From: an uncultured Planctomycetales bacterium
Lineage (GTDB): Bacteria; Omnitrophota; Gorgyraeia; Zapsychrales; Fredricksoniimonadaceae
NCBI GenBank assembly: GCA_964572155.1
Contig: CAZNDZ010000001.1
Span: forward strand, 518,518 to 582,517
Direction of reading: 5' to 3'
Length of the DNA: 64,000 nucleotides
A model generated the notes under the pieces. That model was not told the DNA's origin. It was given only the letters and a program-made list of their open reading frames with translations, and ran no database searches. The position numbers were made by a program, and so were the translations under genes. Of this stretch, positions 17,981 through 47,160 are shown piece after piece. Each line of letters opens with the position of its first letter. Within the stretch, counting starts at the first letter, position 1.

Positions 17981-19446
17981 CGGTAAACGATCTTATTCTT
18001 TAAATCGGGTTGTACGTTAGCTTCCAGTTTTAACTTGTTAACGAACATCCCGATTTTTTCATTACGCTTTTGAGCGCTCACCATTTGTTTGAAGTCTTCA
18101 CGGTCAATATCAAATTTCTTTTCATCAATGGCTTCCTTGCTGCTTAAATAGGCAATGGCAGGCCCTTGTGAGGTTTCAATCACACCGCTTAATTTATTCG
18201 CATCATTTAACGCATAGCTATCTTGTTGGAATTCAGCAATTAAGCCCGGTGCATTGATGTATTCGCCACGGCTAAACGCGGTTGTTTCATCCAATTTCAA
18301 GTTAAGCTCTGTTGCAATGCTCTTGAAATCTTTGCTCTTGATGCGTTCTTTGATCGTCGACAAACTAGCAGCAGCTTTGGCTTTGGCTAATTCATACGCT
18401 TTGGCATTGGTAGCAACAGTTTTAACTTTTGCGATGATGGTTGTAAATTCTGGGGTCGCGCTGGCGCGTTTTTCTTTGATGCGAATGACCTGCCAGCCAT
18501 CGGGTGCTTCCATTGGGGAGCTTGATTCATTTTGTTTCATGGCAAAGATTTTATCGACAAATTCAGGTGACCAAGCAAAGGTCAATAGGGGTTGTTCTTG
18601 CGAAAAGAATCCGCTTGTTTGAAGTGTTTGACCATGTTTGGTTGCGATGGTAGCAAAATCAGCCTTAGGTGTTAGTTCATGACTGATGGCTGCGGCAGCA
18701 TCCTTGATGGCTTGCTTTTTCTTATCATCGGCTTTTTCTGGGTATAACAAATGGACATATTCAACATTAACCATGGGTGGTTCACGGAATGATTCTTTGT
18801 TGGCATCATAGTATTTTTTTGCATCGTCGTCAGAAATCGTGATCGAGCTTAAGAAATCCGTCGGTGAGATGAGGGCATAACTTAACTTGATCTTTTCGTT
18901 ACGCTTGATGTATTCGGCTTTAAGTTCGGCATCGGTAAATGTCACATTTCCGCCAACATTGTCGAGCAATTTACGGATGATCAAAGAACGTCTTGCGCCT
19001 GCTTCAAACTCTTTGACCTTACGATCAAAAATCCCAGCATTTTCAACAATGCGTTCATAAACATTTTGATCAAATTTGCCGTTGGTTTGGAAGAAAGGCA
19101 TAGTAGCAATGTATTCGACTACTTCCTTGTCGCTAACGGTGATATTTTGACGTTTGGCTTCACGTGACAAAATGATGCGGGTCCAAGCTTCGCGTTCAAA
19201 ATCAATGGATTGTCCCATCTTAAAGAAGCGATCTCCGTAGGAAATGATGGCTTGGTCACGGCTATCAAGATAAGCACGTTCAAATTCACGCAAGTTAACG
19301 GACTTGCCGTACACTTTGCCTGCGGTATTGATATTGTTATCTAAACGGTAGGCGGTACCAAAAACACCAAATGACAGGATGATGATGACCGCGACAACCC
19401 ATAAAATTTTTCGTGAAACACCTTTGTGGCGTAAAATGCTTAGCAT
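17977..19446 (-). CDS. Periplasmic chaperone / peptidyl-prolyl isomerase, PpiD-like (SurA-N domain, membrane-anchored)
   Basis: N-terminal TM anchor followed by SurA-N-like chaperone region and a parvulin-like segment. One of only two minus-strand genes. Confidence 0.6.
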   Translation of the reverse strand: MLSILRHKGVSRKILWVVAVIIILSFGVFGTAYRLDNNINTAGKVYGKSVNLREFERAYLDSRDQAIISYGDRFFKMGQSIDFEREAWTRIILSREAKRQNITVSDKEVVEYIATMPFFQTNGKFDQNVYERIVENAGIFDRKVKEFEAGARRSLIIRKLLDNVGGNVTFTDAELKAEYIKRNEKIKLSYALISPTDFLSSITISDDDAKKYYDANKESFREPPMVNVEYVHLLYPEKADDKKKQAIKDAAAAISHELTPKADFATIATKHGQTLQTSGFFSQEQPLLTFAWSPEFVDKIFAMKQNESSSPMEAPDGWQVIRIKEKRASATPEFTTIIAKVKTVATNAKAYELAKAKAAASLSTIKERIKSKDFKSIATELNLKLDETTAFSRGEYINAPGLIAEFQQDSYALNDANKLSGVIETSQGPAIAYLSSKEAIDEKKFDIDREDFKQMVSAQKRNEKIGMFVNKLKLEANVQPDLKNKIVYR

Positions 19447-19574
19447 AAAAGTTCCTTCAGTTTAAGTTGCATGTTAAAGAATTGTGCAATTATAAGGGAA
19501 GCGGGCCGCTTTGACAAGGGCTTGTTTGAAAAATGCCCATTTGCCTATATTTATATAATGTGGTATCTTTTGGG

Positions 19575-22500
19575 ATGGTTCGAAAGCTGTTTTCCCTAAT
19601 ACTATGTGTGCTTTTAATGCAAAGTCCGCAACTCCATGCAGATCAGCTGGTCCTTCCTGCCGGTCAGGCAGGTTTACCGCTGCCTGGAACCATGGTGCAT
19701 TTAAGTCCTTCGGTCAATCCTCCAATCCTTAAAGGTATGAAGGTTTTTAAGGATAATCCGTTCCGTTTTGATTTTATTATGGAACATGGCCAAGACAATG
19801 TTCAAGCCAATACCTTGGTTAAATATTTCTTAGCTGCTTTAACCACACCCGAACAAGACATGTGGGTTAATTTAAGTCCCTATGAAAAAGATCGCATTGT
19901 GCCAGACGGTTTTGGTCAAACTCAAATGGGTCGCGACCTTTTGGCGCAAGATTACATCTTAAAACAAATCACCGCGTCGCTGATTTATCCTGAAGATGCT
20001 GTAGGTAAAGAATTCTGGCGCCGTGTATATGCCACAAGCGCGAATAAGAATATCCCAATCAATACATTTAATAAAGTTTGGATTGTCCCCAATAAGGCTG
20101 TAGTTTACGAGAATGCTAAAGCAGGTACAGCCTATGTTGTTGAATCCTCGCTTAAAGTTTTAACAGAACAAGATTACTTAGCCAATCAACGTAATAAGTC
20201 TGAAGAAAACAATAATCAAATCATCAAAGATGTGGTCATTCCACAATTAACCAAAGAAATCAACGAAGGCGCCAATTTTGCCCAATTGCGTCAAGTCTAC
20301 AATGCCTTGATCTTAGCAACATGGTATAAGAAGAAAATCAAAAACAGCATCCTATCCAAAGTTTATGCTGATCAAAATCGGATAGCCGGCGTCAATATAG
20401 ATGATCCAGAAGAAAAACAAAAGATCTACGCACGTTACTTAGAAGCATTTAAAAAAGGCGCGTATAACTATATTAAAGAAGACACAGACACGCTTGGCGT
20501 GTCTGGACCTAGAAAGTATTTTTCTGGCGGTATGAAGATGGATATGACGATGATGCAAGTTGTTAATAATGCTCAAGTTAAACCCCTCGATCAAGCCATG
20601 GTAATTAAGGTAAAGCTAGAAGTGGCTTCTTTATTGATGAGAGTTGCTTTGGGTTTAAGTGAACAAGAGATGAGTTTTGTTAATTATATCAAATCGCTAG
20701 ATCTAAAAAATGGCAGTGACATCTTGGCTATTGGGGCAACACCAGAAAAAGAATTTCGATATGGCAAGCAACAGGTGCGTGTCGAGTTATTATTTGCTGC
20801 GCTCGATCATCATGTGACGTTATTTCAGCCATATTGGAATGCATGGGATACGGTGCTGGATCAATCTCCTTGGAAGAAGGTTAGAAAGATCGATTATTTC
20901 AAAGAAAAGTTTACCAGCGAGAGCAAAATCGCAAAACGTTCTCAAGATGTTGTTGTCATGATGGCGGTAATGTCGGCATTTACAACAAGCATTCCTTATG
21001 AGAAAAAGCTCGACCTGATGCAAGCCGCGTTGGATGCGTTAAAAGACGATGGTTATTTGATGTTGGGTTGGTACAACTGGGGTACATATCAAAATGGTGA
21101 TATTTCAGGAGAACGAGAAGAGTTTGATAGAACAAATCGAGTGATTGAGGCATTTAAACAAAAAGGCTATGTTTTTAATTTAGATAAAGAAGGTAGCAAT
21201 ACGGCGCATCGATGGCATGTGTATAAAGTAACAAAACCCGATTCAGCCATGGCAACACCTGCAGAAGAGGCGGCTAAGAAGCGTCAGCAGGAAATGGAAG
21301 AGATGGCGGTGAAGGTAGCGACAGAGATGCGAGATGAATGGGGCGCATATCTGCGTAAGAAGAATGATTCCAATTTGAACTATCGCATTGAGAAAGCCTT
21401 GATTGATCCTGTCAAAGGCATCGTTTCGAATTATCTATTAAAGAAAATAGGGCGTCCTCAAGCGATCAGAGAATTGTATGATTTAGGTATTAATAGGCGA
21501 TTATCAAATTCTATGTTGGATTGGGCTGGGAATTTATTTTATCGTGCCATTGATGTTCAAAATAAAACGCTAACGTTACAGGAACAGGTTGTACCATTCA
21601 CATTTGATCAAATGGGTTTAGGGATTAATAAAACAGAGGCAAGGGCTATAACGGCCGTTTATACCGAATATTTAAATTTAAGTGAAGGTCAAAGTGTTGA
21701 GGTGGAGCGATATTTAGTAGGTGATAGGGATTGGCCTTATTATGATTTAAATGAACAGAAGTTATTAGATTCCATATGGATGGATGTGAAGTATAAAATG
21801 TCTGACGATGCATTTGGAGAATTCTATAAAAAAGAAATGATAACAGATATCAAAAAGCCAGAGACCGTGGCTTTTCTTAAGGCACAAGGATATTCTGATA
21901 AACAAATTAACGAGATGGCCAAAGATGCAGGCGTCTTATGGAAGCGTTGGGAATTAATTGCGGCGGAAAGTAAAGAAAAGGATAGAGCGCAAGTGGCGCA
22001 AGATTGGTTAAAACGTTTAGATGGCATGGTGTTTGAGGGGAAGAATGGCAAAAAGTATCAGATGATTAATAGTCATTCGGCCTTATACCCCGAGGAGTAT
22101 TTTATTTTGAATGAAATGGATGCGGATAACAACATCGTCCAACATAATGCAGGGTATTTTAATATCACCATCAAGGATCAGCTGATTATCCTTCATGGTT
22201 TTGCGATGCACCGCATTGAAGATCGTAAGCAATCTATTTTAAGTCAGATATTACAAATATTCCCCCAAGGGTATGACATTGAGTTTGAAGATATGACCAA
22301 TCTTCCGACGTTGAGAGATATGTTGCAGGGGATGTTGAATCAAAATTTTGAAGGCAAATTGAAGCAACGTTTAGAATTGTATGCATCGCAAAGTCCTTTG
22401 CTTTCTGAGAAATCGCTCGATGACGTCGTGATGTCCAAAGAAGAACATCAGGCATTGATGAAATTGTTGGTTGATTATCGCGATTTATCAAAACAGCCAA

Positions 22501-22889
22501 AAGCAAACTTGAAAAGCCTTGAAACAATTGCCATGGAAGGTTTCTCTGGAAAAATTCTCGGTGGTGGAGGCATAAATAGCCCAGTTCGCATAGAATTCAA
22601 AAAAATCAATGACCTTGATGTTGTAAGCCTTTATGTGAAACGTACTAAAGATTCAGCCCAACAGGTTGAAACGCCACTACAACGCGGGGGTATTGATTTT
22701 AATGCGGATAAGATGCAATTAGAGGCGCAGCATGATGATGGGGGCATTGATTTTCAACTGGATCCGGCTCAAATAAAGCAATTTCAGGATGTTGAAGGGT
22801 TTACACCCAATATTTTAAGCATGCAACCCATTCCTGCTGGCCAAGATGGCATCAATGTGGTTAAGACGTTCTTAGGGATGACCCTTTAA
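19575..22889 (+). CDS. Giant secreted protein, paralog 1 (unrecognised family)
   Basis: Signal peptide 'MVRKLFSLILCVLLMQSPQLHA'. The N-terminal module from about nt 19650 to 20520 is paralogous to the N-terminus of the 40556 gene. The C-terminal roughly 65 aa, with 'GGIDF' twice and 'DPAQIKQFQDVEGFTPNIL', is paralogous to that gene's C-terminus. Start chosen at ATG 19575 because the conserved upstream element ends there. Confidence 0.8.
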   Translation: MVRKLFSLILCVLLMQSPQLHADQLVLPAGQAGLPLPGTMVHLSPSVNPPILKGMKVFKDNPFRFDFIMEHGQDNVQANTLVKYFLAALTTPEQDMWVNLSPYEKDRIVPDGFGQTQMGRDLLAQDYILKQITASLIYPEDAVGKEFWRRVYATSANKNIPINTFNKVWIVPNKAVVYENAKAGTAYVVESSLKVLTEQDYLANQRNKSEENNNQIIKDVVIPQLTKEINEGANFAQLRQVYNALILATWYKKKIKNSILSKVYADQNRIAGVNIDDPEEKQKIYARYLEAFKKGAYNYIKEDTDTLGVSGPRKYFSGGMKMDMTMMQVVNNAQVKPLDQAMVIKVKLEVASLLMRVALGLSEQEMSFVNYIKSLDLKNGSDILAIGATPEKEFRYGKQQVRVELLFAALDHHVTLFQPYWNAWDTVLDQSPWKKVRKIDYFKEKFTSESKIAKRSQDVVVMMAVMSAFTTSIPYEKKLDLMQAALDALKDDGYLMLGWYNWGTYQNGDISGEREEFDRTNRVIEAFKQKGYVFNLDKEGSNTAHRWHVYKVTKPDSAMATPAEEAAKKRQQEMEEMAVKVATEMRDEWGAYLRKKNDSNLNYRIEKALIDPVKGIVSNYLLKKIGRPQAIRELYDLGINRRLSNSMLDWAGNLFYRAIDVQNKTLTLQEQVVPFTFDQMGLGINKTEARAITAVYTEYLNLSEGQSVEVERYLVGDRDWPYYDLNEQKLLDSIWMDVKYKMSDDAFGEFYKKEMITDIKKPETVAFLKAQGYSDKQINEMAKDAGVLWKRWELIAAESKEKDRAQVAQDWLKRLDGMVFEGKNGKKYQMINSHSALYPEEYFILNEMDADNNIVQHNAGYFNITIKDQLIILHGFAMHRIEDRKQSILSQILQIFPQGYDIEFEDMTNLPTLRDMLQGMLNQNFEGKLKQRLELYASQSPLLSEKSLDDVVMSKEEHQALMKLLVDYRDLSKQPKANLKSLETIAMEGFSGKILGGGGINSPVRIEFKKINDLDVVSLYVKRTKDSAQQVETPLQRGGIDFNADKMQLEAQHDDGGIDFQLDPAQIKQFQDVEGFTPNILSMQPIPAGQDGINVVKTFLGMTL

Positions 22890-35344: not shown

Positions 35345-36373
35345 ATGCATACAACCGTTGCCGAAATTGCCAATCTTATAGGCGGCCAGATCGTCGGTGA
35401 TGGTAATGTGAAGATCCAAGCATGCGCAGGTATTCACGAAGCAAAAAACGGGCATTTGACGTTTATTATCAGTGAAAAATATTTGCCGCAAGCTTTAAAG
35501 ACAGAAGCTTCAGCAGTCATTATTCCCCGACAGATGTCCTTGCCGGGGAAAACTGTTATTAGGGTCGACAATCCATCACTAGCTTTTACGTTGGTCCTAA
35601 AAGATTTCCTTAAAGATATTCCAAGCTCTCATCCTGTAGGCATTCATCCAACAGCGGTGATTGATCCAAGCGCGCGCATTGGTCGTGATGTTGCCATGGG
35701 GCCTTATGTTGTCATTGACAAAGGGGCTGTCATCGGTGATCGGACGATTCTTTATGCCCATAGTTATATTGGCCCTCGAACACATGTTGGTGCGGATTGT
35801 TTATTTTACGCACATGTAAACATTCGTGAAGATATTCACATAGGTAATCGCGTCATCATCCAACAAGGCGCTGTTATCGGCAGCGATGGTTATGGCTATG
35901 TGATGATGGATGGTCGTCATGAAAAGATCCCGCAAATTGGAACAGTTGTTATTGAAGATGATGTGGAGATAGGTGCGAATGCGGCCATTGATCGTGCGCG
36001 TTTTGAGAAAACCATTATTGGTGAAGGCACTAAAATCGATAACTTGGTACATATTGCCCATAACGTCATTACAGGCAAGCATTGTTTAATCATTGCCCAA
36101 GCTGGTGTTTCTGGCAGCGCTCGCTTAGGAAATTATGTTATACTTGCAGGTCAAGTAGGGGTGGTTGGCCATTTGACCATTGGCGATGGTGCTATTGTGA
36201 CGGCACAATCGGGGGTAAGTAAATCAATTAAGGCGGGTGAACAAGTGTTTGGTTCACCGGCACAGCCTATAAAACAAGCATTTATCACCAACGCGCATAT
36301 CCAACGTCTGGATCATTATGCCAAGACGATCAAAGAATTAAAACAGCGTGTGGATGCCTTAGAAAAGCGGTAA
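35345..36373 (+). CDS. lpxD: UDP-3-O-acylglucosamine N-acyltransferase (LpxD)
   Basis: Hexapeptide repeats. N-terminal LpxD domain 'IAELIGGQIVGDGNVKI'. Confidence 0.85.
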   Translation: MHTTVAEIANLIGGQIVGDGNVKIQACAGIHEAKNGHLTFIISEKYLPQALKTEASAVIIPRQMSLPGKTVIRVDNPSLAFTLVLKDFLKDIPSSHPVGIHPTAVIDPSARIGRDVAMGPYVVIDKGAVIGDRTILYAHSYIGPRTHVGADCLFYAHVNIREDIHIGNRVIIQQGAVIGSDGYGYVMMDGRHEKIPQIGTVVIEDDVEIGANAAIDRARFEKTIIGEGTKIDNLVHIAHNVITGKHCLIIAQAGVSGSARLGNYVILAGQVGVVGHLTIGDGAIVTAQSGVSKSIKAGEQVFGSPAQPIKQAFITNAHIQRLDHYAKTIKELKQRVDALEKR

Positions 36374-37659
36374 TGAAACAAAAATCAATTAAGTCAGATG
36401 TAAAGCTTTCAGGAGTTGGTTTGCATTCTGGAAAGAATGCCACCGTCACCATAAAGCCCGCGGCACAAGATCAAGGCATTGTTTTTAAGCGCACGGATTT
36501 GGTTAAGGTTGTGTCGATCCCGTTGGTGCCCTCAAGTGTTTTGCGGGATGAGAATGTTACCCGCTGTACGGCCATTTGTGCTAATGGTGCCAGTGTTTAT
36601 ACGATCGAACATTTGTTGGCGGCGTTGCATGCGTTGGGCATTGATAATGTGACGGTTGAGATTGACGCCGAAGAAATGCCAGGGATGGACGGCAGTTCTT
36701 TAGAATTTGTTAAAGCCTTACAACGTGCAGGGATTGTTGAGCAAGATGCGCCAAAGCAATACATTACCGTCACGGTGCCAATCACCGTCAGCAAAGGTGA
36801 TGCATCAGTTACCATTTTACCCGCGGATGATTTTAAGGTATCATATACCTTAGATTACAATCATCCGGCTTTACCGTTACAAACATTTGAGATGCCTGTT
36901 AATGCGGCGTCATTTGAAAAAGATATAGCACCGGCGCGGACATTTTGTTTAAAAGAAGAGATCGATGTTATCCGCAGCAAAGGTTTGGGCAAAGGGGCCA
37001 ATGAGCAAAACACCTTGGTCATGACCACAGATGGGCCGGTGGGCAATACCTTGCGGTTTAAAGATGAGTGCGCGCGCCATAAAGCCTTGGATATCGTCGG
37101 AGATATATTTTTGTTGGGTTGCCCAGTACGTGGCCATGTGATTGGCAATAAAAGTGGGCATGCGTTAAATCGAAAGTTAGTTGAGAAAATCATGGAGCAG
37201 AATATGAGTACAAAAGTTTACGATATTAATGAGATCATGAAAATTTTGCCGCACCGTTATCCGTTTTTATTGGTTGATCGTGTGACAATCACCGAGCCGG
37301 GTAAAAAAGGTGTTGGGCTAAAGAATGTAACGATTAATGATGGTTTCTTCGCTGGTCATTTCCCTCAACGTCCGGTCATGCCAGGCGTTTTGATGGTGGA
37401 AGCTTTAGCACAAACCGCAGGTGTTGTTGTATTAACCAGCGGCGCGCACCCTGATAAAGTCGCATTGTTCATGTCGATCGAAGGTGTTAAATTTCGTAAA
37501 GTTGTATCCCCCGGTGATCAGCTAATGTTGGAAGTTGAAATCATCCGCGATCGTGAACGCACCTCTCAAGTTAAGGGTATAGGTAAGGTTGATGGGGAAG
37601 TTGTTGTTGAAGCAGAAATGTTATTCTCATACACCGATGTGGAGTATTTAAATAAATAA
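36373..37659 (+). CDS. lpxC-fabZ: Bifunctional LpxC (UDP-3-O-acyl-GlcNAc deacetylase) / FabZ fusion
   Basis: N-terminal 'VKLSGVGLHSGK' LpxC start. C-terminal 'ILPHRYPFLLVDRV ... DGFFAGHFPQRPVMPGVLMVEALAQ' FabZ hot-dog fold. Confidence 0.85.
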   Translation: MKQKSIKSDVKLSGVGLHSGKNATVTIKPAAQDQGIVFKRTDLVKVVSIPLVPSSVLRDENVTRCTAICANGASVYTIEHLLAALHALGIDNVTVEIDAEEMPGMDGSSLEFVKALQRAGIVEQDAPKQYITVTVPITVSKGDASVTILPADDFKVSYTLDYNHPALPLQTFEMPVNAASFEKDIAPARTFCLKEEIDVIRSKGLGKGANEQNTLVMTTDGPVGNTLRFKDECARHKALDIVGDIFLLGCPVRGHVIGNKSGHALNRKLVEKIMEQNMSTKVYDINEIMKILPHRYPFLLVDRVTITEPGKKGVGLKNVTINDGFFAGHFPQRPVMPGVLMVEALAQTAGVVVLTSGAHPDKVALFMSIEGVKFRKVVSPGDQLMLEVEIIRDRERTSQVKGIGKVDGEVVVEAEMLFSYTDVEYLNK

Positions 37660-38464: not shown

Positions 38465-39266
38465 AAAAATAATTGGCTTAATTGCAGGGAACAATCAATT
38501 TCCTTTCCTCTTTGCCCGTGCTGCTAAAGATCAAGGCTATTGTGTGATTGCTGCAGGTGTTATTGGTGACACATCGCCGCTTCTCTTTTTCTTCGTCGAT
38601 AAATTAAAATATTTTAAAGTGGGCGAGTTAACCAAGCTTTTTGCTTATTTTCGCCAATTTGGCGTGAGTGAAGTGATCATGGCTGGCCAAGTTAATCCAG
38701 ATAATTTGTTTAACCCCAATGTTAAGTTGGATCCTGAGTTTCAAAGCCTTGCCGATGCCCTGCGTGATCGTAAGACCGACACCATCTTTGGTGCTGTGGC
38801 AGATCGTTTGGGAAAAGAAGGTATGACCTTGCTTGATTCGACGATGTTGCTAAAAAAATATTTGTCACCAAAAGGCACATTGACCAAACGGGGCCCAACA
38901 AAGTCAGAATTAGATGACATTGAATTTGGGTTTGGTCTAGCAAAATCCATGGGTGGGATCGATGTGGGTCAGACGGTGGTTGTTAAAGAAAAAGCCATTG
39001 TTGCCATTGAAGCCATGGAAGGCACCGATAAAGCCATTCTACGTGGTGGCGCCATCGCACATAGTGGTGCTGTGATTGTCAAAACATCTAAGCCCAAACA
39101 AGATAGTCGTTTTGATGTGCCAGTCATTGGCCCGCGCACCATTGACAATATGATCAAGATTCAAGCCGCATGCCTTTGCATTGAAGCCGGCAAAACCCTC
39201 ATCATAGACATCGATCAAGTCCTCAAGAAAGCCAACGATAACAACATCTGCATCGTCGCTGCTTAA
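38433..39266 (+). CDS. lpxI: UDP-2,3-diacylglucosamine hydrolase LpxI (DUF1009)
   Basis: 'IGLIAGNNQFPFLFARAAKDQG' and the C-terminal 'DVGQTVVVKEKAIVAIEAMEGTD' are LpxI-like. Sits directly after lpxA. Confidence 0.6.
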   Translation: MSKTLNVASPKKIIGLIAGNNQFPFLFARAAKDQGYCVIAAGVIGDTSPLLFFFVDKLKYFKVGELTKLFAYFRQFGVSEVIMAGQVNPDNLFNPNVKLDPEFQSLADALRDRKTDTIFGAVADRLGKEGMTLLDSTMLLKKYLSPKGTLTKRGPTKSELDDIEFGFGLAKSMGGIDVGQTVVVKEKAIVAIEAMEGTDKAILRGGAIAHSGAVIVKTSKPKQDSRFDVPVIGPRTIDNMIKIQAACLCIEAGKTLIIDIDQVLKKANDNNICIVAA

Positions 39267-40477
39267 GGCCGCAAATCCAAAAATGGTTTTTCAATTAAGG
39301 TGTATAAGAGTACGGAAAGCGCCATTGTCATTAAACCACTGATGAGACCAACATAAACAATGTCTGTGGCTTGGATGTGTTGACCATGATACCAGCGTTG
39401 TAGTGTGATAAAGATAACAATGGGTTGAATCAAGTAAGCCGCATATGAAATTTTGGCAATAGGGTACCAGATTTTTAAGTTTAAGAATTGCTGGATGTTT
39501 CTTCCAATCAAAGTTTTGGAGAATGAGAGCATAAATAGTGCGCATGCCCCCAAAGCAAACCAATATCGATAAGTGGCCATATAAAAATTTCCAAGCGGGA
39601 TTTCCCAGTCACCATAATTTATTCTTCCTAAGATCCAGCCTAGCGTCAATATGGATGCGAACAATAAAGTGTATGCCCATCGTTTTAAATTGATGAATTT
39701 AAAAAAGGATTCGTGTTGAACCAAATAAGCAACACAAACACCGAGAAGCAATGGGCCATAACGCGTGTGTAGTTTGTCGTAGAGCAAGTCATAGTATCTT
39801 AGGAAATGCGTTGTATCCGTCGGGTGAAGCGCTGGATGTATCATAAAATAAAATGTGTAACCGTTTTTGTATGTTAAAAATATGTTGATGAAGAAACCAA
39901 TAATCAGAAGAGTTGAAATGATTAGGTGAGGTTTAAGTTTTTTGCGATAGATGAATAAGATTAGAAAAGGACAGATGATGTAAAATTGCTCTTCAACAGC
40001 TAGAGACCAGCCCCATGGCATAAATTGATTTAAATCTGAAATGAAATTATTGATGAAAATGAGATTTGCCCATGCATTGTGGATATTCTGGGATGTGTTT
40101 TTTGTAAAAAAAGCCAAGGCGCAAAATATTACTATGATCACATAATATAAAGGAGCAATGCGCATGAAGCGGCGCAGCAAGAAACGTAGCACATTTAATG
40201 TTTGGGTGTGGTGTATTTCTTGAAGCAATAAATTGCCTATTAAGAATCCACTGATGAGAAAAAAGATGTCCACACCAAAATGTCCATGCAGAAACCAACG
40301 TAGATATGGAGCATTAAAGAGTTCTTTGGTTTCGTTTGGTGGGAGAAACTCAGCAAAGAGTAAAATAACGTGAAAGGCAAAGCTCCAGATAATGGCTAAT
40401 GCGCGCATGCCATCAATGTGGTTATAGCGCCCTTCATTGCGGATAAAGATGGATCTAATATTTGCTTGGATATTCAT
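39263..40477 (-). CDS. Acyltransferase family 3 (OafA/OatA-like integral membrane O-acyltransferase)
   Basis: 'IDGMRALAIIWSFAFHV' AT3 motif. Ten or more TM segments. Confidence 0.7.
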   Translation of the reverse strand: MNIQANIRSIFIRNEGRYNHIDGMRALAIIWSFAFHVILLFAEFLPPNETKELFNAPYLRWFLHGHFGVDIFFLISGFLIGNLLLQEIHHTQTLNVLRFLLRRFMRIAPLYYVIIVIFCALAFFTKNTSQNIHNAWANLIFINNFISDLNQFMPWGWSLAVEEQFYIICPFLILFIYRKKLKPHLIISTLLIIGFFINIFLTYKNGYTFYFMIHPALHPTDTTHFLRYYDLLYDKLHTRYGPLLLGVCVAYLVQHESFFKFINLKRWAYTLLFASILTLGWILGRINYGDWEIPLGNFYMATYRYWFALGACALFMLSFSKTLIGRNIQQFLNLKIWYPIAKISYAAYLIQPIVIFITLQRWYHGQHIQATDIVYVGLISGLMTMALSVLLYTLIEKPFLDLRP

Positions 40478-40555: not shown

Positions 40556-43500
40556 ATGCCTCAGAAGTTTTGGTCTTTAATTTTGATGATATGTTTATTG
40601 CCCATGCCGCAAGTCCATGCAGGAGAAAGTGTTATAAGCCTGCCTGCCGGTCAGGCAGGCCTGCCTGTGCCTGGGACCATGGTTCATTTAAGTGCGCCAA
40701 CTAACCCTGTTTTGCTTAAAGGGATAAAAGTTCATCAGGATAATCCATTCAAATTTGAATTCGTAATAGATAAAGGCACCGTAGAGACGCCATTGATGGC
40801 GTCTAATACAACGATCGAAAATGAATCTAAAAAATTAATCAAATATTTTCTTGCCGCGCTAACCATCCCTGAAAAAGATCTATGGGTTAACTTAAGTCCC
40901 TACGAAAAAGACCGCATTGTGCCTGAAAGTTTTGGCCAAACCCAAATGGGCCGCGACTTACTCGCCCAAGACTATATTTTAAAACAAATCACCGCAAGTT
41001 TGATTTATCCAGAAGACACGATTGGCAAAGAATTCTGGCGACGCGTCTATGAAGCCTCCGCAGACAAAAATACTTCGATCAACACCTTTAATAAAGTCTG
41101 GATTGTTCCTAATAAAGCCAAAGTGTATGAGAATGCAAACGCAGGCACAGCCTATGTTGTTGAATCTTCCCTAAAAGTTTTAACAGAACAAGATTACGTC
41201 GCCACAAACAAAAATACCGTACAGACGCGATTTATCGCGTCTCAATCAACCCAAAATATCATCAAAGACATTGTCATCCCGCAATTAACCAAAGAAGTCA
41301 ACGAAGGCGCCAATTTCGCGCAGCTGCGACAAGTCTACAATGCCTTAATCCTAGCAACGTGGTACAAGAAAAAAATCAAAGACAGCATTCTGGCACAAGC
41401 CTACGCCGACAAAAACAAAATCGCAGGCACCCAATATCAAGACAATTTAAACCCAGAACAAATTTATGCGCGTTATCTCGAAGCGTTTAAAAAAGGCGCG
41501 TTTAATTACATTAAAGAAACTGACATGTCAAATGGCATAACCGTTCCAAGAAAATATTTCTCCGGCGGGGCCAACCTTCAAGTTTCGCAGGCGATGACAG
41601 CATCAGACAAAGAGCCAGTAACGACGGGTCATGAGTTTGTGGTTGAAGCAAAGCTTGAATCACCATCCATGAAAGATTATCGTGAAAGGTTAAAAAATGA
41701 ATACTATCATGCGCTCTCCACAGGGCAAAAAGTTATTGATATCACCGCATATTTAGGGTCTGCGGCAGTAAAAGGATTATTTAATGATGGATTTGTGTTT
41801 GAGTTGGATGGTTTTAAGCCAGGAAATATCTCAAATGGGCTTGGTCATGGAAAAGTAGAAGATCGGATTATTATGGAAGATCAAGGAGATCAGCGTATTT
41901 TTAAGCGAATTCGTAAGAATGCTAAATATCCTGATGGAAATATTGTTGTCTATTCTATTTGGCATAAGACACAAAAGAAGGATGAGCACTCGAATGGCAT
42001 GGTATGGGAAAGAGATTATGCACCTTTTGAAGATCGGAGCATAGATATTGAAAATAAATCCCCGTTTAATTCAAAACAGCGTTTTTATGAAGATATTGAG
42101 CGGGAATATAAAGATTTTCCTGGGACTATTGGCATTGCTAAGTTAATTTTTGAAGTTAATAAATTGGAATACAATAAATCAAGAATTGGATCGCTTGTTG
42201 GAAAACGATTACGTCCAACAAATTCTGATGGAAGCAGCACGTTTTCATTGATTAAAGGAAAGATTAAGATACCTGTTTTAGGTACAACTGATGATCTGCA
42301 TACATGGGATCCGGTCATTGTTAGTGAACGCATGGATGAGAATAGCTACGAATTTACTGTCCAGTCAACAACGGATGGCATGGAGCCTATAGAGCGTACA
42401 TTTCGTATAGGGAAAAAGACAAAACAGATAATGTGGAGGGGGCGCGGTAAAACTATTTATGTCATTGAACCTGTTGATCGGGTACCTGTGCAAGTGATGC
42501 AACGTTTGATTGACGCAAGAAAGCCTTTTAATGTTACACGAACTCTTGAAGCATTGAAAGCTATTGAAGGGCAAAATATTGATGTTACTGAAGACACAGG
42601 ACAAATTAAAGTATTCTTTGGAAATGGTGAGTTTTATCGGTGGGCTGTGTTAGGCATGCGGCAAGCTGGTTGGAAGGTTAAGGTGCTGGGAGCTAAGCCT
42701 TCTAGGACAGGTGATTCAATTATTCTTTCAATGATATTAAATAAGCTTAGTGGGCAACATGTTATCAAAGTTTTTGAGTTTGGTAAGAAGGTTGCGATTT
42801 CAAAGCGTGGTTTTAAACATTTTGTGATGGAGCCTGTTAAGTTTAAAGACCTTAGACAGGCGATGAGTGTGAGCGGTTCATATTTGAAAAACGATCTAAA
42901 GTTATTGAGTTTTGATATGACAAATACGATAAGAATCGTTTTTGCCGATGGTAATATTCGATCGAATAAGTATTTAGTATCTTATTCAATTAAACGTTAT
43001 CAGGAAAGATTTGGAAAGAAGGTTGCAGTGGGCGCTGGGCGTGTATTTCATCATGTTCAATTTGATAAAGACGAAGTTGATGATGAAGAAAATAATGCAA
43101 TGTTAGCAGAAGATTTCCCTCATCCAGGAAATAAAACCAGAGTAAATGAATTGAAAGTTGAAGCGCATGATTGGCTTGTTAAATTGCTTCGACGAGAATA
43201 TGGTAATTCGGTTGCTTTTGAGACGTTGGTTGATTCGGCAAAAGATAAGAGTTTTTATTTGGGGAAATTGGGTGCAGGGAAAATTGTTTTGCCGATTTAT
43301 GCGGACAAAGATTATACGCGGCAATTGTTAGATTCTTCTTTCTCGAAGAAGGCTGATGAGCGGTCTGGTTGGGAAACATGGTTGACGAATGTGCGTATGC
43401 TTCATGGTAGCGTCTGGTTTAATTTTGTTTTGATTAAACGAGAGATGGTTGATGGGGTTGAGCAGAAAAGAAAGATTGTGCAGGAGTATGTTGTTAATCC

Positions 43501-46500
43501 GTATATCACAAGGGATGTTCTTTTAATCGATGGAAAGGATATTGATGTTTTAGAAATTGTTAAAGCTGAAAATTTTCCGTCGCGCATGTTAAGTGCGTTT
43601 ATGTTGCGCCCTAATGACTTTGAGAAATTAAAGCCAATGATGTTGGCGTTACAGGGAAGCTTTTTTGGTTTGACACATACAGCAGGTGAAGTTCTTTTTG
43701 CTGTACCTAATAAGTTATATCCTGAAAAGAATTTATTCCTGATTGATAAGTCTGCAGGGGTTGAAGATAAAACACAATGGCATGCGGTTATGAAGAAAGT
43801 TAATTTTCACGATCAAGTGGTAGATTTTACGTTTGGTGTTAGTAAAGATGATACGGTATTGCCAGATGTGAATTTTCAAGCAAGCCCTGCGCTTCAAGAG
43901 CTTTCTGTTAATATTCATGATAAGCAAAAGACCCTAGATGTCATGACCTTAGACAAACGATTGGCTGTTAGAGGATTAGAAAAATTTGCATTATTCGGCG
44001 GCAGTGCGCAGGATTTGATTAAAAGTGGGTTCACCCTTAAAGGGACATCTTTTGGGGAAGTGAATGCCGCTGGTGCCGTGAGCATAACCCCTTGGTCGGG
44101 CCATTCTTATGCAGTGCCAATATCTGGTTTAAAAGATAATGGTGGTCGCGTAGCGATCATTGATGAATATATCTATACGTACTCGCAAGGGAATAAAATC
44201 CGTTATGAATTTACAGCATCAACAATAAAAGATGGAGAAATGCCGTTTCTTCGAAAGTTTATAGCTAGTAAAAATGTTGGCGATAGTTCGTTTGAATCTT
44301 TTGATATTCAGCCAGATGAATCATTTGATGCGCAACAGGCATTAGAAGCAACGTTAAAGCATATTCAGCGTTTGAATGGCGTGAAAATTAAAGTTACGAG
44401 TGGTGAGAATCCACGTCTAAGGGTTATTAATAGAAAATTCGGATTATATTTTCATTCCATATATTTTCAAGGTTTGCAGCCAGGAACCTATGATATGAAA
44501 GTTCAACAAAAAGGAAGAACTGGGGAGTTTAAAGTAACAATGAAAGGAATGAGAGAAACATTGATATATAGGATCAATGCTGATGAACAGCTAAATTTAG
44601 AGACAAATATCAGACCATCTGGCGACGATATTGGTCAAAACGAGTTTGATAAGTTTATATTAGATTTTCGCTCAAAACATCCGAATGATTGGGTTCAAGC
44701 AATACGACAGGATGATCAAAAGCTGAGGGTATATTGGAAAAGCAGTGATGGGAATATTTATCGCACCATTGTAACGGAAGATTTTCTAAAGAGCCTTGGA
44801 TATAGGAATGTTAAATTCAAATTACTTGAAGAAGACAGCAAAGAATATGCTTTGGTTAAGGATGCGATAGACACGAAAACCATGTATGCAACAAAGCATT
44901 TTTTGAAAGTTCAAGCGCAAGATGAATTCCCGCAAGAATATCTACGAAATAAAGAAGGTCTGAAGCGAATTTATGCCGCAACACCTGCGGTTGTTGGGCT
45001 TTCTCAATTGATGTTCGAAGGAATAAAAGGCAAGGAAAGCAAAGAGGTCTTAAAATCTTTAGTTGGTCAAACATTGCCCATTACAGATAAACAAGGAAGA
45101 AGTATATTTGCGATCTTTCCTAATTTTAGCATCAATTTATCGGTCATAGGAACAATGGAAGCAGGTTGGCAGCCTACGGTTTCAAAAGTTGGGATTAATG
45201 AATTAGGATATTTTGAATTTACCATAAGGTCGACGAAGGAAGGCAAAGTGCCAGTAGAGAGAACATTTGAAATAGGACGATTCAAGAAGAAATTCACATG
45301 GAATAATCTCGACGTATTTGTCTATAACTTAATTTCTGTTGAACGTATTCGTCTCATCATTTTAAAGAGGGTCGTTAAGAAGAAGGGGCGATTCAATGCG
45401 CCCAAAGTGAGTGTTTTGTTAAATCAATTAAGGGGTGTTGATTTAGGTCCTTCTTTACCGGGGGGGCAATTAAACATTTATCTATCAACAAATAAACGGA
45501 TGGCATGGTATTTTGCATCAGAAGCGGGTCGGACGATGCGTATATTAGATGCGCGTGTTAGTGACGCTAATGATTCAGTGCTTATTACGACATTGATTGA
45601 GCATACGGTGGGATCGTATTCAATACGAGTGTATGAACTAGGCAAAGAATATGTAGTGGTCAAGAAAGGCTTAGAACACTACACATTTAATCCTGTTTCT
45701 TTTAATAATCAAAATCAAGCAATACGGTTTATTAAGCCTGCCATCATTGGTTTAGATAAGCCTTTAGCGCGCGATCCATTTCTTTCGAATGTTGTTCTTG
45801 AGTTTCCGGATGTCTTAGAAAAAGAGAAGGTAGTGGTGATCCACAATGGAGAATATTATTCACTATTTCCAAAAGAAGAAAAAATGTATGTAGATCGAAC
45901 ATTCTCAGAGGTCAGAAGGGTTTTACAAGAAAGGGCTGTTCGTGATTTTATACAAGGTGATGCGTATAACGCATTGCCACTTAATCGAAGGCTAGGTGCT
46001 TTTATTAAGTTTATTCGCTCAAATGAATACTTTCATGGTGTTGGAAATATGGGAAAGATTTGGAATGCTTTACAGAAACTTGAGGATGAAGAACTTGAAA
46101 ATGAATTAGATTGGGGAAAGATTGGTGGATATAGCATTTTGTATAAAGATTATGAGCGGTTGGTTTCTATTTTAGAGCAAAAAGAAGTTTCTGGGTTCAT
46201 CGAAGAAAAGATAGTCAAGGGTCATATAATCCCTAAGTTAAGCATCAAGTTTTTGCGACGACATTTATTACAAGAACATGCTACTTTTATGTCCCGCATT
46301 CCATTGATGGATTTATACTTAGCCATCCCAATGCAATACCGCAGTCATTTTGCAAGACCAGACGCCGCCATGCTCACAACGTCTGAATCGAATACCGGTG
46401 GGATCGATCTAACAGCCGATCAAATGAATCTCCAAACCAAATCCCAAGATCAACAATCCATGGCCTTTCATATGGATCCAGCTCAGTTGGCTCAGGTGCA

Positions 46501-46576
46501 AAATGCAGAAGGGTTTGAGCCGGTGATTGTTAGTGTTTTGCCGTTGACTGATCTGCATGCGTTTTTGACGCGTTAG
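40556..46576 (+). CDS. Giant secreted protein, paralog 2 (about 2000 aa) with internal about 170-aa repeats (unrecognised family)
   Basis: Signal peptide 'MPQKFWSLILMICLLPMPQVHA'. N-terminal about 300 aa and C-terminal about 65 aa are paralogous to the 19575 gene. At least three internal repeat copies are anchored by 'YEFT-x-x-ST-x-[DE]G-x-x-P-x-x-R-x-F'. Confidence 0.8.
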   Translation: MPQKFWSLILMICLLPMPQVHAGESVISLPAGQAGLPVPGTMVHLSAPTNPVLLKGIKVHQDNPFKFEFVIDKGTVETPLMASNTTIENESKKLIKYFLAALTIPEKDLWVNLSPYEKDRIVPESFGQTQMGRDLLAQDYILKQITASLIYPEDTIGKEFWRRVYEASADKNTSINTFNKVWIVPNKAKVYENANAGTAYVVESSLKVLTEQDYVATNKNTVQTRFIASQSTQNIIKDIVIPQLTKEVNEGANFAQLRQVYNALILATWYKKKIKDSILAQAYADKNKIAGTQYQDNLNPEQIYARYLEAFKKGAFNYIKETDMSNGITVPRKYFSGGANLQVSQAMTASDKEPVTTGHEFVVEAKLESPSMKDYRERLKNEYYHALSTGQKVIDITAYLGSAAVKGLFNDGFVFELDGFKPGNISNGLGHGKVEDRIIMEDQGDQRIFKRIRKNAKYPDGNIVVYSIWHKTQKKDEHSNGMVWERDYAPFEDRSIDIENKSPFNSKQRFYEDIEREYKDFPGTIGIAKLIFEVNKLEYNKSRIGSLVGKRLRPTNSDGSSTFSLIKGKIKIPVLGTTDDLHTWDPVIVSERMDENSYEFTVQSTTDGMEPIERTFRIGKKTKQIMWRGRGKTIYVIEPVDRVPVQVMQRLIDARKPFNVTRTLEALKAIEGQNIDVTEDTGQIKVFFGNGEFYRWAVLGMRQAGWKVKVLGAKPSRTGDSIILSMILNKLSGQHVIKVFEFGKKVAISKRGFKHFVMEPVKFKDLRQAMSVSGSYLKNDLKLLSFDMTNTIRIVFADGNIRSNKYLVSYSIKRYQERFGKKVAVGAGRVFHHVQFDKDEVDDEENNAMLAEDFPHPGNKTRVNELKVEAHDWLVKLLRREYGNSVAFETLVDSAKDKSFYLGKLGAGKIVLPIYADKDYTRQLLDSSFSKKADERSGWETWLTNVRMLHGSVWFNFVLIKREMVDGVEQKRKIVQEYVVNPYITRDVLLIDGKDIDVLEIVKAENFPSRMLSAFMLRPNDFEKLKPMMLALQGSFFGLTHTAGEVLFAVPNKLYPEKNLFLIDKSAGVEDKTQWHAVMKKVNFHDQVVDFTFGVSKDDTVLPDVNFQASPALQELSVNIHDKQKTLDVMTLDKRLAVRGLEKFALFGGSAQDLIKSGFTLKGTSFGEVNAAGAVSITPWSGHSYAVPISGLKDNGGRVAIIDEYIYTYSQGNKIRYEFTASTIKDGEMPFLRKFIASKNVGDSSFESFDIQPDESFDAQQALEATLKHIQRLNGVKIKVTSGENPRLRVINRKFGLYFHSIYFQGLQPGTYDMKVQQKGRTGEFKVTMKGMRETLIYRINADEQLNLETNIRPSGDDIGQNEFDKFILDFRSKHPNDWVQAIRQDDQKLRVYWKSSDGNIYRTIVTEDFLKSLGYRNVKFKLLEEDSKEYALVKDAIDTKTMYATKHFLKVQAQDEFPQEYLRNKEGLKRIYAATPAVVGLSQLMFEGIKGKESKEVLKSLVGQTLPITDKQGRSIFAIFPNFSINLSVIGTMEAGWQPTVSKVGINELGYFEFTIRSTKEGKVPVERTFEIGRFKKKFTWNNLDVFVYNLISVERIRLIILKRVVKKKGRFNAPKVSVLLNQLRGVDLGPSLPGGQLNIYLSTNKRMAWYFASEAGRTMRILDARVSDANDSVLITTLIEHTVGSYSIRVYELGKEYVVVKKGLEHYTFNPVSFNNQNQAIRFIKPAIIGLDKPLARDPFLSNVVLEFPDVLEKEKVVVIHNGEYYSLFPKEEKMYVDRTFSEVRRVLQERAVRDFIQGDAYNALPLNRRLGAFIKFIRSNEYFHGVGNMGKIWNALQKLEDEELENELDWGKIGGYSILYKDYERLVSILEQKEVSGFIEEKIVKGHIIPKLSIKFLRRHLLQEHATFMSRIPLMDLYLAIPMQYRSHFARPDAAMLTTSESNTGGIDLTADQMNLQTKSQDQQSMAFHMDPAQLAQVQNAEGFEPVIVSVLPLTDLHAFLTR

Positions 46577-46640: not shown

Positions 46641-46883
46641 ATGTCAAAGACGGTGACCATTCGTTTAAATGATGATGATTACAAACAAATTGCAAGTGCG
46701 GCACAGCAAGAACGTCGACCGATTTCAAATTTTATTACGCATACGGTGTTAGATGTTTTAGCTAGCATTAATGTGGTCGATGATGTTGAAATGCAGGAAA
46801 TTTTATCGGATGCGAGTTTGGTTAAGAAACTAAAACGTGGTCATGCGCAAGTAGCGACTAGAAAAGGAAAATTTGTTGAATAG
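46641..46883 (+). CDS. Ribbon-helix-helix (CopG/ParD-like) antitoxin
   Basis: 'MSKTVTIRLNDDDYKQIASAAQQERRPISNFITHTVL' is a beta-strand then helix-helix RHH signature. The ATG at 46641 follows an AAGGGGG RBS. It overlaps the toxin start. Confidence 0.6.
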   Translation: MSKTVTIRLNDDDYKQIASAAQQERRPISNFITHTVLDVLASINVVDDVEMQEILSDASLVKKLKRGHAQVATRKGKFVE

Positions 46884-47160
46884 TTTCCGTATATTTGAAA
46901 CGGAAGGTTTTCAAGAGGATTTAGACCAAATCTTGGGTAGTAAATTTGAAAAGGTTTATGAAAAGCTCAAATTATTTGTTTATCCGCAGTTGATGTCCCA
47001 ACCGTACTTTGGAAAAAATATTAAGAAATTAAAGAATTATAAACCAGACACATGGCGCTATCGCATTGCGGATATTAGGCTTTTCTATCAAATTGATGGG
47101 AAAGGAAAAGTTGTGCTTATGGCCGCAGCTGATTTACGAAAAGATGCATATAAGCATTAA
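46873..47160 (+). CDS. RelE/ParE-family type II toxin
   Basis: 'WRYRIADIRLFYQIDGKGKVVLMAAADLRKDAY' matches the RelE/ParE C-terminal core. A TTG start overlaps the antitoxin stop by 11 nt. Confidence 0.6.
   Translation: MLNSFRIFETEGFQEDLDQILGSKFEKVYEKLKLFVYPQLMSQPYFGKNIKKLKNYKPDTWRYRIADIRLFYQIDGKGKVVLMAAADLRKDAYKH

What the first reader, a model, noticed from the sequence alone, without database searches (positions are those of the whole stretch)
40556..46576. Giant paralog 2 (about 2000 aa) contains at least three copies of a novel about 170-aa internal repeat
Three copies were found by reading the translation. Copy A (about nt 42345-42865) runs 'YEFTVQSTTDGMEPIERTFRIGKK ... HVIKVFEFGKKVAISKRGFKHFVMEPVKFKDLRQA'. 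Copy B (about nt 45205-45721) runs 'FEFTIRSTKEGKVPVERTFEIGRFKK ... YSIRVYELGKEYVVVKKGLEHYTFNPVSFNNQNQA'. A third, shorter copy at about nt 44205 begins 'YEFTASTIKDGEMPFLRKF'. The repeats lie in the AT-rich central part, which is unrelated to the centre of paralog 1. Repeat modules inside a secreted giant suggest a binding or structural array, for example an adhesin stalk.
Basis: seen in the sequence. Interest (0 to 1): 0.7.

Follow-up and report, generated by a model that had tools for sequence, protein, structure and literature searches.

The report
Novel repeat domain, Omnitrophota exported protein
A 2,006-residue exported protein of an uncultured Omnitrophota bacterium contains six copies, in three pairs, of an unannotated ~120-residue helix-plus-sheet domain that matches no known family or solved fold and most likely acts as a rigid scaffold in a very fast-evolving envelope or secreted protein.

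Summary
Copies A (aa 512-770) and B (aa 1467-1723) align over about 260 aa, not 170 (28% identity, E 1e-32 to 1e-37, z = 61 against shuffles). Each copy is a tandem pair of a ~120-aa unit made of two helices and a six-strand antiparallel sheet. A unit profile built only from other proteins finds six units in this ORF. The homology lies upstream of that motif, and nothing downstream resembles a unit.

The host protein belongs to a very large Omnitrophota family: signal peptide, conserved ~350-aa N-domain, variable centre, conserved ~60-aa C-domain, almost no cysteine. The positional ortholog shares only 26-30% identity in the centre, while flanking genes share 74-95%. The best reading is a non-enzymatic rigid scaffold or spacer module. 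The 'adhesin stalk' idea is unproven.

The parts
40556..46576 (+). Whole ORF, 2006 aa plus stop. A member of the Omnitrophota family built as signal peptide, conserved N-domain, variable centre and conserved C-domain.
   Evidence: identical to P0001. In one search, 119 of 119 top relatives have both end domains.
40556..40624 (+). Sec-type signal peptide, aa 1-23 (MPQKFWSLILMICLLPMPQVHA|GE).
   Evidence: Read directly from the sequence. It is the only hydrophobic segment and holds the only Cys. Paralogs have equivalent AxA motifs.
40625..41695 (+). Conserved N-terminal domain, about aa 24-380, shared with paralog 1 and with thousands of Omnitrophota proteins.
   Evidence: about 60% identity across the family; 586 loci. 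No PDB match by sequence or by fold.
41729..42016 (+). Separate ~95-aa module (aa 392-487). Single copy here, 2 to 5 copies in relatives P0002, P0003 and P0004.
   Evidence: E 1e-9 to 7e-17.
42074..42874 (+). Repeat block A (aa 507-773): units 1 and 2 plus a capping strand and helix.
   Evidence: AF2 model of aa 506-775 with pLDDT 92.3.
42119..42451 (+). Unit 1 (aa 522-632).
   Evidence: Independent unit profile, E 9e-19, 54.6 bits.
42446..42796 (+). Unit 2 (aa 631-747).
   Evidence: Independent unit profile, E 1.3e-14, 41.1 bits.
43259..43447 (+). Possible degenerate partial unit (aa 902-964). Not counted among the six.
   Evidence: 2.8-7.6 bits only. Five domain hits among the 200 shuffled proteins reach 2.8 bits.
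43532..43906 (+). Unit 3 (aa 993-1117), diverged.
   Evidence: Independent unit profile, E 1.3e-7, 18.5 bits. The shuffle maximum is 5.6 bits.
43922..44269 (+). Unit 4 (aa 1123-1238).
   Evidence: searches (E 3.7e-11; E 3.5e-9), and via P0002. No unit follows it.
44939..45736 (+). Repeat block B (aa 1462-1727): units 5 and 6 plus a cap.
44996..45298 (+). Unit 5 (aa 1481-1581).
   Evidence: Independent unit profile, E 6.4e-24, 71.2 bits.
45353..45652 (+). Unit 6 (aa 1600-1699).
   Evidence: Independent unit profile, E 2.1e-9, 24.2 bits.
45740..46369 (+). ~210-aa 'tail' module (aa 1729-1938) that follows block B. It occurs twice in the ortholog P0002, each time directly after a unit pair, so pair plus tail behaves as one cassette.
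   Evidence: Among the sequences examined it was found only in this protein and P0002.
46376..46573 (+). Conserved C-terminal domain (aa 1941-2006), which lies within 20 aa of the C-terminus in all relatives examined.

Best explanation
What is shown. The ORF encodes a Sec-exported, cysteine-free member of a very large Omnitrophota-specific protein family. Members have a conserved ~350-aa N-domain, a hypervariable modular centre and a conserved ~60-aa C-terminal domain. The centre of this member contains six copies, arranged as three tandem pairs, of a previously unannotated ~120-aa domain made of two alpha-helices followed by a six-strand antiparallel sheet.

What is inferred. The unit is a non-catalytic structural module. 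The last strand of one unit and the first strand of the next form a long beta-hairpin, so tandem units stack into a rigid rod or superhelical scaffold rather than beads on a string. This scaffold would space or present the other modules of the protein in the cell envelope or outside the cell. The centre evolves, or is exchanged as cassettes, far faster than the two ends. That pattern fits a protein exposed to prey, hosts or phages.
For: Repeat reality and phase.

The unit is a family:
- 195 units in 52 proteins, with start-to-start spacing mostly 120-140 aa and up to 14 units per protein.
- 55 of 1.84e9 cluster representatives match the profile.
- All five taxon-labelled representatives that were looked up are Omnitrophota.

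Fold and rigidity:
- The AF2 model has pLDDT 92.3 and pTM 0.73.
- Both halves show the same H-H-E-E-E-E-E-E pattern.
- Strands 107-122 and 125-134 bridge unit 1 to unit 2 through a 2-residue turn, with linker pLDDT 88-90.

Non-catalytic character:
- The well-conserved columns are Gly, Trp and hydrophobic residues, plus K100, R108 and Q111.
- This protein itself replaces Q111 by R or E.

Scaffold context:
- Array-bearing proteins each carry different enzyme domains: GNAT, HATPase_c, PanB, iPGM, URO-D, RmlD, ECH and WD40.
- Only 5 of 119 family members examined have the unit. It is therefore an optional, shuffled building block.

Export:
- A signal peptide is present and there are no transmembrane segments.
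- The mature protein has 0 Cys in 1,983 aa. The family median is 0.08% Cys, against 0.82% in neighbouring genes.

Fast evolution or cassette exchange:
- The positional ortholog P0002 lies in perfectly conserved synteny.
- Its flanking proteins are 74-95% identical, but the centre is only 26-30% identical, with 7 units instead of 6 and the pair-plus-tail cassette duplicated.
- GC3 is 0.315 in the centre, against 0.42-0.44 in the ends.
Against: - No coordinates of the model could be inspected, so the hairpin junction and the rigidity are read from the DSSP string and pLDDT only.
- Only a two-unit model was made. The geometry of longer arrays is unknown.
- No localisation, expression or binding data exist.
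- In this protein the pairs are separated by 220-245-aa segments of unknown nature, so a continuous rod is not demonstrated here.
- Conserved K, R and Q positions could instead form a binding site.
- The neighbouring enzyme-type domains in relatives are of cytoplasmic kinds. This is odd for an extracellular scaffold and remains unexplained.
Confidence: 0.55

Rival explanations
1. The units are ligand- or surface-binding modules, lectin-like or protein-binding. Multiple copies would give avidity for a prey or host surface. This is the 'binding array' half of the reader's idea.
For: The protein is exported and cysteine-free. The centre diverges very fast between positional orthologs, as expected for interaction surfaces. 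Polar positions K100, R108, Q111 and T50 are conserved alongside aromatic residues. A few single members gave stray weak Pfam hits to CarboxypepD_reg, Big_3, He_PIG and CBM30, each in one member with E 0.007-0.28.
Against: No carbohydrate-binding or adhesin family is matched consistently: no Pfam family matched more than 1 of 29 sequences. There is no fold match to any lectin, CBM or Ig domain. The units in this protein have lost several family-conserved residues (W32, W68, Q111), which argues against a conserved binding site. Units co-occur with enzyme domains, not adhesin heads.
Confidence: 0.22
2. The unit is the building block of the 'antiparallel beta-helix with external paired alpha-helices', the ~1500-aa tubule-like structure predicted in giant Omnitrophota proteins by West-Roberts et al. 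2023. Arrays would form a hollow conduit or spike used in predation or secretion.
For: The published description is antiparallel sheets with regularly interspaced exterior paired helices, in Omnitrophota proteins. It matches the unit's two helices plus antiparallel sheet, the hairpin joining successive units, and the tandem arrays of up to 14 units.
Confidence: 0.1
3. The repeats are evolutionary debris, relics of cassette duplication in a rapidly turning-over centre, with no function of their own. Alternatively, they are a known fold or enzyme that the model and searches failed to recognise.
For: Units 3 and 6 are strongly diverged, and a seventh is barely detectable. The centre has low GC3 and low conservation. 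The AFDB library was unavailable, so only PDB was searched by fold.
Against: The open reading frame is intact over 6 kb. Unit pairs are retained in the positional ortholog despite about 70% sequence change. The family-wide pattern of conserved core residues, and a pLDDT-92 model from only 29 sequences, indicate a folded domain under selection.
Confidence: 0.08

Closest known systems
Predicted 'antiparallel beta-helix with external paired alpha-helices' of giant Omnitrophota proteins (West-Roberts et al. 2023, bioRxiv 10.1101/2023.11.21.568195, Fig. 5)
   Same: Same phylum. Repeating antiparallel sheet with paired helices at regular intervals. Found in unannotated stretches of long, modular, predicted extracellular proteins that also carry HATPase, GNAT, NUDIX, HAD and HEAT modules.
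   Different: That structure spans about 1500 aa in proteins over 30,000 aa. Here there are pairs of units in a 2-kaa protein, and at most 14 units in proteins of 7.8 kaa or less. No sequence or coordinate comparison was possible, and the profile found no very long protein. This is a resemblance from a text description only.
Tandem beta-sandwich stalk repeats of bacterial adhesins (Big/Ig-like, cadherin-like, He_PIG)
   Same: Repeats of ~100-120 aa in tandem within large exported proteins, with a presumed spacer or rod role.
MARTX toxins and other 'conserved ends, variable centre' secreted proteins (whole-protein analogy, from general knowledge)
   Same: Conserved N- and C-terminal regions flank a mosaic centre that differs between paralogs and strains. 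The proteins are exported and cysteine-poor, and each genome holds several paralogs.
   Different: No RTX or glycine-rich repeats, no CPD protease and no T1SS signal were detected by Pfam. This protein has an N-terminal Sec signal peptide, which T1SS substrates lack. The analogy concerns architecture only.
T9SS cargo proteins (Sec signal peptide plus C-terminal sorting domain)
   Same: An N-terminal signal peptide and a short conserved domain at the extreme C-terminus of otherwise unrelated proteins.
   Different: No match to the Pfam T9SS C-terminal-domain models in the whole-protein scan. The C-domain here is about 60 aa with its own motif (GGIDL...PVI..I.PL.DL..FL). There is an additional conserved N-domain that T9SS cargo lacks. 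No T9SS genes were seen in the parts of the window examined.

Membership tests
   Whole protein: 0 Pfam families at E <= 0.1. Among 29 unit-pair sequences, Big_3 and He_PIG each hit one member only (E 0.01 and 0.16), below the curated cut-offs.
Omnitrophota 'N-domain / variable centre / C-domain' family (unnamed) | A ~350-aa conserved domain directly after a signal peptide. | tested here: met
   aa 21-375 is 48-67% identical to relatives. There are 586 or more loci in Omnitrophota MAGs.
Omnitrophota 'N-domain / variable centre / C-domain' family (unnamed) | A ~60-aa conserved domain at the extreme C-terminus. | tested here: met
   aa 1941-2006 matches the C-terminal domains of all 119 relatives examined, each ending within 20 aa of the C-terminus.
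New ~120-aa alpha/beta repeat unit (this report) | Match to a unit profile built from other proteins only. Consensus: L.eL...P..fdW......lPdL.Gl.LG.Td..G.I.F.P..ny.y.W.vLGf.e.GW.a.I..s.v..G..eftVeltK.G..p..RtFQIGp. | tested here: met
   Six matches of 18.5-71 bits. The shuffle maximum is 5.6 bits.
West-Roberts antiparallel beta-helix 'tubule' | A continuous single-stranded helix of antiparallel sheets with a hollow interior over about 1500 aa. | not testable with these tools
Autotransporter, RTX (T1SS) or T9SS secretion substrates | A C-terminal beta-barrel translocator, RTX nonapeptide repeats, or a T9SS C-terminal sorting domain. | tested here: not met
   No Pfam or NCBIfam model of any kind matches the protein at E <= 0.1.

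The most novel reading that the evidence does not exclude
The ~120-aa unit may be a genuinely new fold whose tandem copies assemble, through shared hairpins, into a new kind of rigid beta-superhelical rod or conduit. That could be the sequence-defined building block of the 'tubule' seen in giant Omnitrophota proteins. The host family (signal peptide, conserved N-domain, cassette-swapped cysteine-free centre, conserved C-domain; thousands of members and many per genome) may be a so far undescribed Omnitrophota-specific export, display or effector-delivery system used in epibiotic predation.
Probability: 0.15. Interest if true: 0.8.

Novelty: new variant of a known kind. Interest (0 to 1): 0.5.

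Why it matters
Omnitrophota are ultra-small, probably predatory or host-dependent bacteria. Their long modular proteins are largely 'dark', with no annotation. This analysis gives three usable things.

1. It defines a repeat domain with boundaries, a consensus, a confident model and a distribution. That domain can be used to annotate unannotated stretches of 52 proteins, some up to 7.8 kaa.

2. It shows that the domain sits in a cysteine-free, signal-peptide-bearing family with conserved ends and a centre that changes about 70% of its residues between genomes whose housekeeping genes are about 85% identical. That pattern marks the family as a prime candidate for the cell-surface or secreted interface of these organisms.

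3. It offers a concrete, testable link to the unusual beta-helical 'tubules' predicted in the giant proteins of the phylum.

If the unit is only a spacer, the result is a useful new domain definition and not a new principle.

Tried and rejected
- Word-index homolog searches. The search for homologous proteins with the 5-sequence repeat alignment and with a two-unit consensus both returned 'none scored'. The exhaustive HMM search did find relatives. The word-index candidate step evidently failed, so these two results carry no information.
- Fold search against AFDB (afdb50). The library was not available.
- The search for related loci with alignments A2 and A1.
- The search for related loci with aa 1461-1940 as a single protein. 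No close relative was found among GTDB species representatives, so the window's own genome is not a representative there.
- Defence, phage and other libraries (PADLOC, PHROGs, NCBIfam). No hits.
- Recent DNA duplication. No direct or tandem DNA repeats correspond to the protein repeats.
- A unit downstream of the YEFTAS motif, and a degenerate 'tail' after block A. Neither is supported.
- Literature. Five searches and four papers consulted gave no description of this N/C-domain family or of the unit.
- Lipoprotein anchoring. I rejected this because the residues before the single Cys (L-M-I-C) do not fit a lipobox. This rests on the sequence and on general knowledge of the lipobox consensus.
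Full report
1. THE ORF

Window 40556-46576 (+) is one open reading frame of 2006 aa from the ATG. A TTG two codons upstream is the mechanical ORF start. The translation is identical over its full length to a database protein, P0001, seen on a 1.34-Mb contig. Pfam, NCBIfam, PADLOC, PHROGs and PDB sequences give no hit for the whole protein.

2. THE REPEAT IS REAL BUT LONGER AND DIFFERENTLY PHASED

Chunked self-BLAST aligns aa 512-750 with aa 1467-1703 (27.8% identity, E 3.5e-32) and aa 546-770 with aa 1501-1723 (E 2.6e-33). With the 270-aa blocks as queries the match is 28.4% over 261 columns, E 2e-37. The local alignment score is 350, against 35 +/- 5 for 300 shuffles, so z = 61.

The third copy is, pairwise, only a 19-23-aa motif match (E 0.07). 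The alignment scores of that region against A and B have z = 2.6-2.7, and 5 and 10 of 300 shuffles respectively reach them.

No repeat is visible at the DNA level, so the duplications are old.

3. THE 260-aa BLOCK IS A PAIR OF A ~120-aa UNIT

The closest relative, P0002 (2975 aa), has three full blocks.

A profile of the five blocks was run exhaustively over 1.84 billion cluster representatives:
- 55 proteins scored E <= 1e-3, 38 scored <= 1e-10 and 16 scored <= 1e-30.
- Many are long, up to 7,822 aa, with many matched stretches.

Mapping these matches showed two things. The first half of the profile recurs alone in tandem. Overlapping hits align the second half of the profile onto the first.

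The alignment of 29 blocks makes this plain. In most proteins the two halves carry the same motif string: L..L..P..F.W....LP.L.G..LG.T...G.I.F.P....Y.W..LG....GW...I.......G..EFTV...K.G.....R.FQIG.

I built a unit profile from the other proteins only, with no sequence from this ORF or P0002. It finds six units in this ORF:
- aa 522-632, E 9e-19
- aa 631-747, E 1.3e-14
- aa 993-1117, E 1.3e-7
- aa 1123-1238, E 3.7e-11
- aa 1481-1581, E 6.4e-24
- aa 1600-1699, E 2.1e-9

A weak extra signal lies at aa 902-964. In 200 locally shuffled copies of the protein the best score was 5.6 bits, against 18.5-71 bits for the six units.

The 'YEFTAS...' motif forms the last strands of unit 4. Its homology runs upstream of the motif. 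This is also seen through P0002, with E 3e-6 and 4.6e-8. The 245 aa downstream score 1.2 bits against a profile of second-position units, while shuffles reach 8.3 bits.

So 'at least three copies' is right in spirit, since there are three pairs. The unit length, the phase and the description of the third copy are not right.

Across all 55 relatives I count 195 units in 52 proteins, up to 14 per protein. Start-to-start spacing is mostly 120-140 aa.

4. STRUCTURE

AlphaFold2 on aa 506-775, using the 29-sequence alignment, gave mean pLDDT 92.3 and pTM 0.73.

Both halves show the same order of elements: two helices, then two short and four long antiparallel strands. In the model's own numbering (residue 1 = aa 506), a 16-residue strand at 107-122, which is the end of unit 1, is followed after a two-residue turn by strand 125-134, which is the start of unit 2. 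That strand leads into the helices of unit 2. The linker pLDDT is 88-90.

I read this as a shared hairpin that couples neighbouring units rigidly.

5. RESIDUE CONSERVATION

In the 195-unit alignment the columns conserved at >= 50% are Gly, Trp, Leu/Ile/Val, Phe and Pro, plus T50, K100, R108 and Q111. There is no Asp/Glu/His/Ser/Cys set suggestive of catalysis. The units of this ORF have themselves lost W32 and W68 in most copies and Q111 in all copies. This argues for a structural role rather than a conserved active or binding site.

6. THE HOST PROTEIN AND ITS FAMILY

All of them matched through the first ~350 aa.

All 119 top hits have this N-domain at the N-terminus and a ~60-aa domain within 20 aa of the C-terminus. 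Their centres differ widely and carry many kinds of Pfam domains, including HATPase_c, GNAT, methyltransferases, HAD, REC, GGDEF and HEAT. Named members are Candidatus Omnitrophota.

A scan of GTDB species representatives with the N-domain found 586 or more loci. The 80 loci listed are all in Omnitrophota MAGs, some of them deposited as 'uncultured Planctomycetales'. Many loci fall in the same genome. At least six family members lie on the window's own contig, and one of them is 'paralog 1' at 19533-22889.

Only 5 of the 119 family members examined contain the unit. Conversely, most unit-bearing proteins lack the N-domain in the sequence available. Fifteen long unit-bearing proteins carry, between them, GNAT, HATPase_c, PanB, iPGM, URO-D, RmlD, ECH, guanylate kinase and WD40 domains. 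The unit is thus an optional, shuffled building block of Omnitrophota mosaic proteins.

7. EVIDENCE FOR EXPORT

The N-terminus (MPQK-FWSLILMICLLPMP-QVHA|GE) has the n-, h- and c-regions of a Sec signal peptide. Relatives have equivalent AxA sites. No other segment reaches transmembrane-like hydrophobicity.

The only cysteine is in the signal peptide. The mature 1,983 residues have none. Across 120 family members the median Cys content is 0.08%, with 34 having none, against 0.82% in 36 other ORFs of this window. From general knowledge, such depletion is typical of proteins that cross the outer membrane unfolded or that live outside the cell.

The gene lies between LpxI (plus an acyltransferase-3 gene on the minus strand) and the Asx-tRNA synthetase and LolE/LolD genes, downstream of BamA-Skp-LpxD-LpxC/FabZ-LpxA. 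Paralog 1 is next to a divergently oriented SurA/PpiD-like PPIase.

8. EVOLUTION

P0002 occupies exactly the same syntenic position in another MAG: BamA, Skp, LpxD, LpxC-FabZ, LpxA, LpxI, [gene], AsxRS, LolE, LolD, an aminotransferase, McsA-like, McsB and ClpC.

Identity between the two genomes (except where noted):
- the eleven flanking proteins: 74-95%
- the N-domain: 50-58%
- the C-domain: 59%
- the centre: 26-30%

The two centres also have different architectures:
- This ORF has six units, while P0002 has seven.
- The pair-plus-tail cassette is duplicated in P0002.
- P0002 has extra inserted segments, including what looks by eye like a NUDIX motif (not tested).

GC3 is 0.315 in the centre, against 0.424 in the N-domain and 0.439 in the C-domain. 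Either the centre evolves extremely fast or it is replaced by cassette exchange while the ends are kept.

9. INTERPRETATION

Shown:
- a real, ancient, six-fold repeat of a new domain family confined, as far as labelled sequences show, to Omnitrophota;
- a confident model without a known fold match;
- a host protein that is exported, cysteine-free and rapidly diversifying.

Inferred: the unit is a non-catalytic, rigidly concatenating scaffold or spacer (confidence about 0.55).

Rivals:
- Binding modules that provide avidity (about 0.22).
- The building block of the 'antiparallel beta-helix with external paired alpha-helices' predicted in giant Omnitrophota proteins by West-Roberts et al.. The description fits well. 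No comparison was possible, and the profile hit no protein over 7.8 kaa (about 0.10).
- Debris or a missed known fold (about 0.08).

Nothing adhesin-specific was found.

10. NOVELTY

Tandem repeat domains in large exported proteins are a familiar kind of thing. This particular domain is absent from Pfam (2025 copy) and NCBIfam (2026). It has no PDB relative by sequence or fold. It was not described in the literature I could search. I rate it a new variant of a known kind, with moderate interest.

The larger and less ordinary observation is the host family itself, recorded under 'noticed in passing'.

Noticed in passing
window 40556-41695 and 46376-46573; also 19533-20660 and 22686-22832 (paralog 1): A very large Omnitrophota-specific protein family. 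Members have a signal peptide, a ~350-aa N-domain about 60% identical across members, an unrelated variable centre often holding cytoplasmic-type enzyme domains, and a ~60-aa C-domain at the extreme C-terminus. More than 3,594 hits were found in the protein collection and 586 or more loci in GTDB representatives, with many paralogs per genome. There is no Pfam or NCBIfam model and no PDB relative, and I found no description in the searched literature.
   Followed up: partly
window 40625-46573 (mature protein); family proteins P0001-P0120: Near-total absence of cysteine. This protein has 0 Cys in 1,983 mature residues. The family median is 0.08% Cys, and 34 of 120 members have none, against 0.82% in 36 other ORFs of the window. 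This holds even though many centres contain enzyme domains of cytoplasmic type.
   Followed up: partly
window 40556-46576 versus locus L082 6001-14928: The positional ortholog P0002 lies in perfectly conserved synteny. Flanking proteins are 74-95% identical, but the centre is only 26-30% identical and has a rearranged module order. The N-domain of this ORF is at least as similar to paralogs on its own contig (59-66%) as to the positional ortholog (50-58%). This hints at concerted evolution of the ends, cassette exchange of the centres, or both.
   Followed up: partly
window 41696-46375: Third-codon-position GC drops to 0.315 in the variable centre, against 0.424 in the N-domain and 0.439 in the C-domain of the same gene. 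Paralog 1 does not show this contrast (0.37-0.39 throughout).
   Followed up: no
window 41729-42016 (aa 392-487): A second, unrelated repeat family of ~95 aa (motif ...DIT..LGS....G.FN..F.FE..G..PG....G.G.GK..D...M......I.F.R.R). It is single-copy here but occurs 2, 3 and 5 times in tandem in relatives P0002, P0003 and P0004 respectively.
   Followed up: partly
window 45740-46369 (aa 1729-1938): A ~210-aa 'tail' module follows block B. It occurs twice in P0002, each time directly after a unit pair, so pair plus tail is one duplicated cassette. It was found in no other protein among the 170 examined.
   Followed up: partly
window 39263-40477 (-): An acyltransferase-3 family gene on the minus strand sits between LpxI and the giant ORF. 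It is absent at the same position in the syntenic locus L082, where LpxI ends 66 nt before the ortholog starts. It is probably an insertion or a loss at this junction.
   Followed up: no
window 17977-19446 (-) and 19533-22889 (+): Paralog 1 is divergently adjacent to a SurA/PpiD-like periplasmic PPIase (SurA_N plus Rotamase_2). West-Roberts et al. note a conserved Rotamase_2 PPIase near giant Omnitrophota genes. A possible chaperone link was not examined.
   Followed up: no
window 36373-37659: LpxC and FabZ (FabA-like dehydratase) are fused in one 428-aa ORF. The same fusion is present in the syntenic MAG locus L082.
   Followed up: no
window 46641-47160: Two small ORFs (80 and 94 aa, no Pfam hit on record) are called between the giant ORF and the tRNA synthetase gene in the identical Logan contig L001. 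The syntenic locus L082 has only 107 nt there.
   Followed up: no
loci L003, L005-L008 and others: Several MAGs that carry this Omnitrophota-specific family and Omnitrophota-like synteny are deposited as 'uncultured Planctomycetales bacterium' (TPA assemblies). This is probably a labelling artefact.
   Followed up: no
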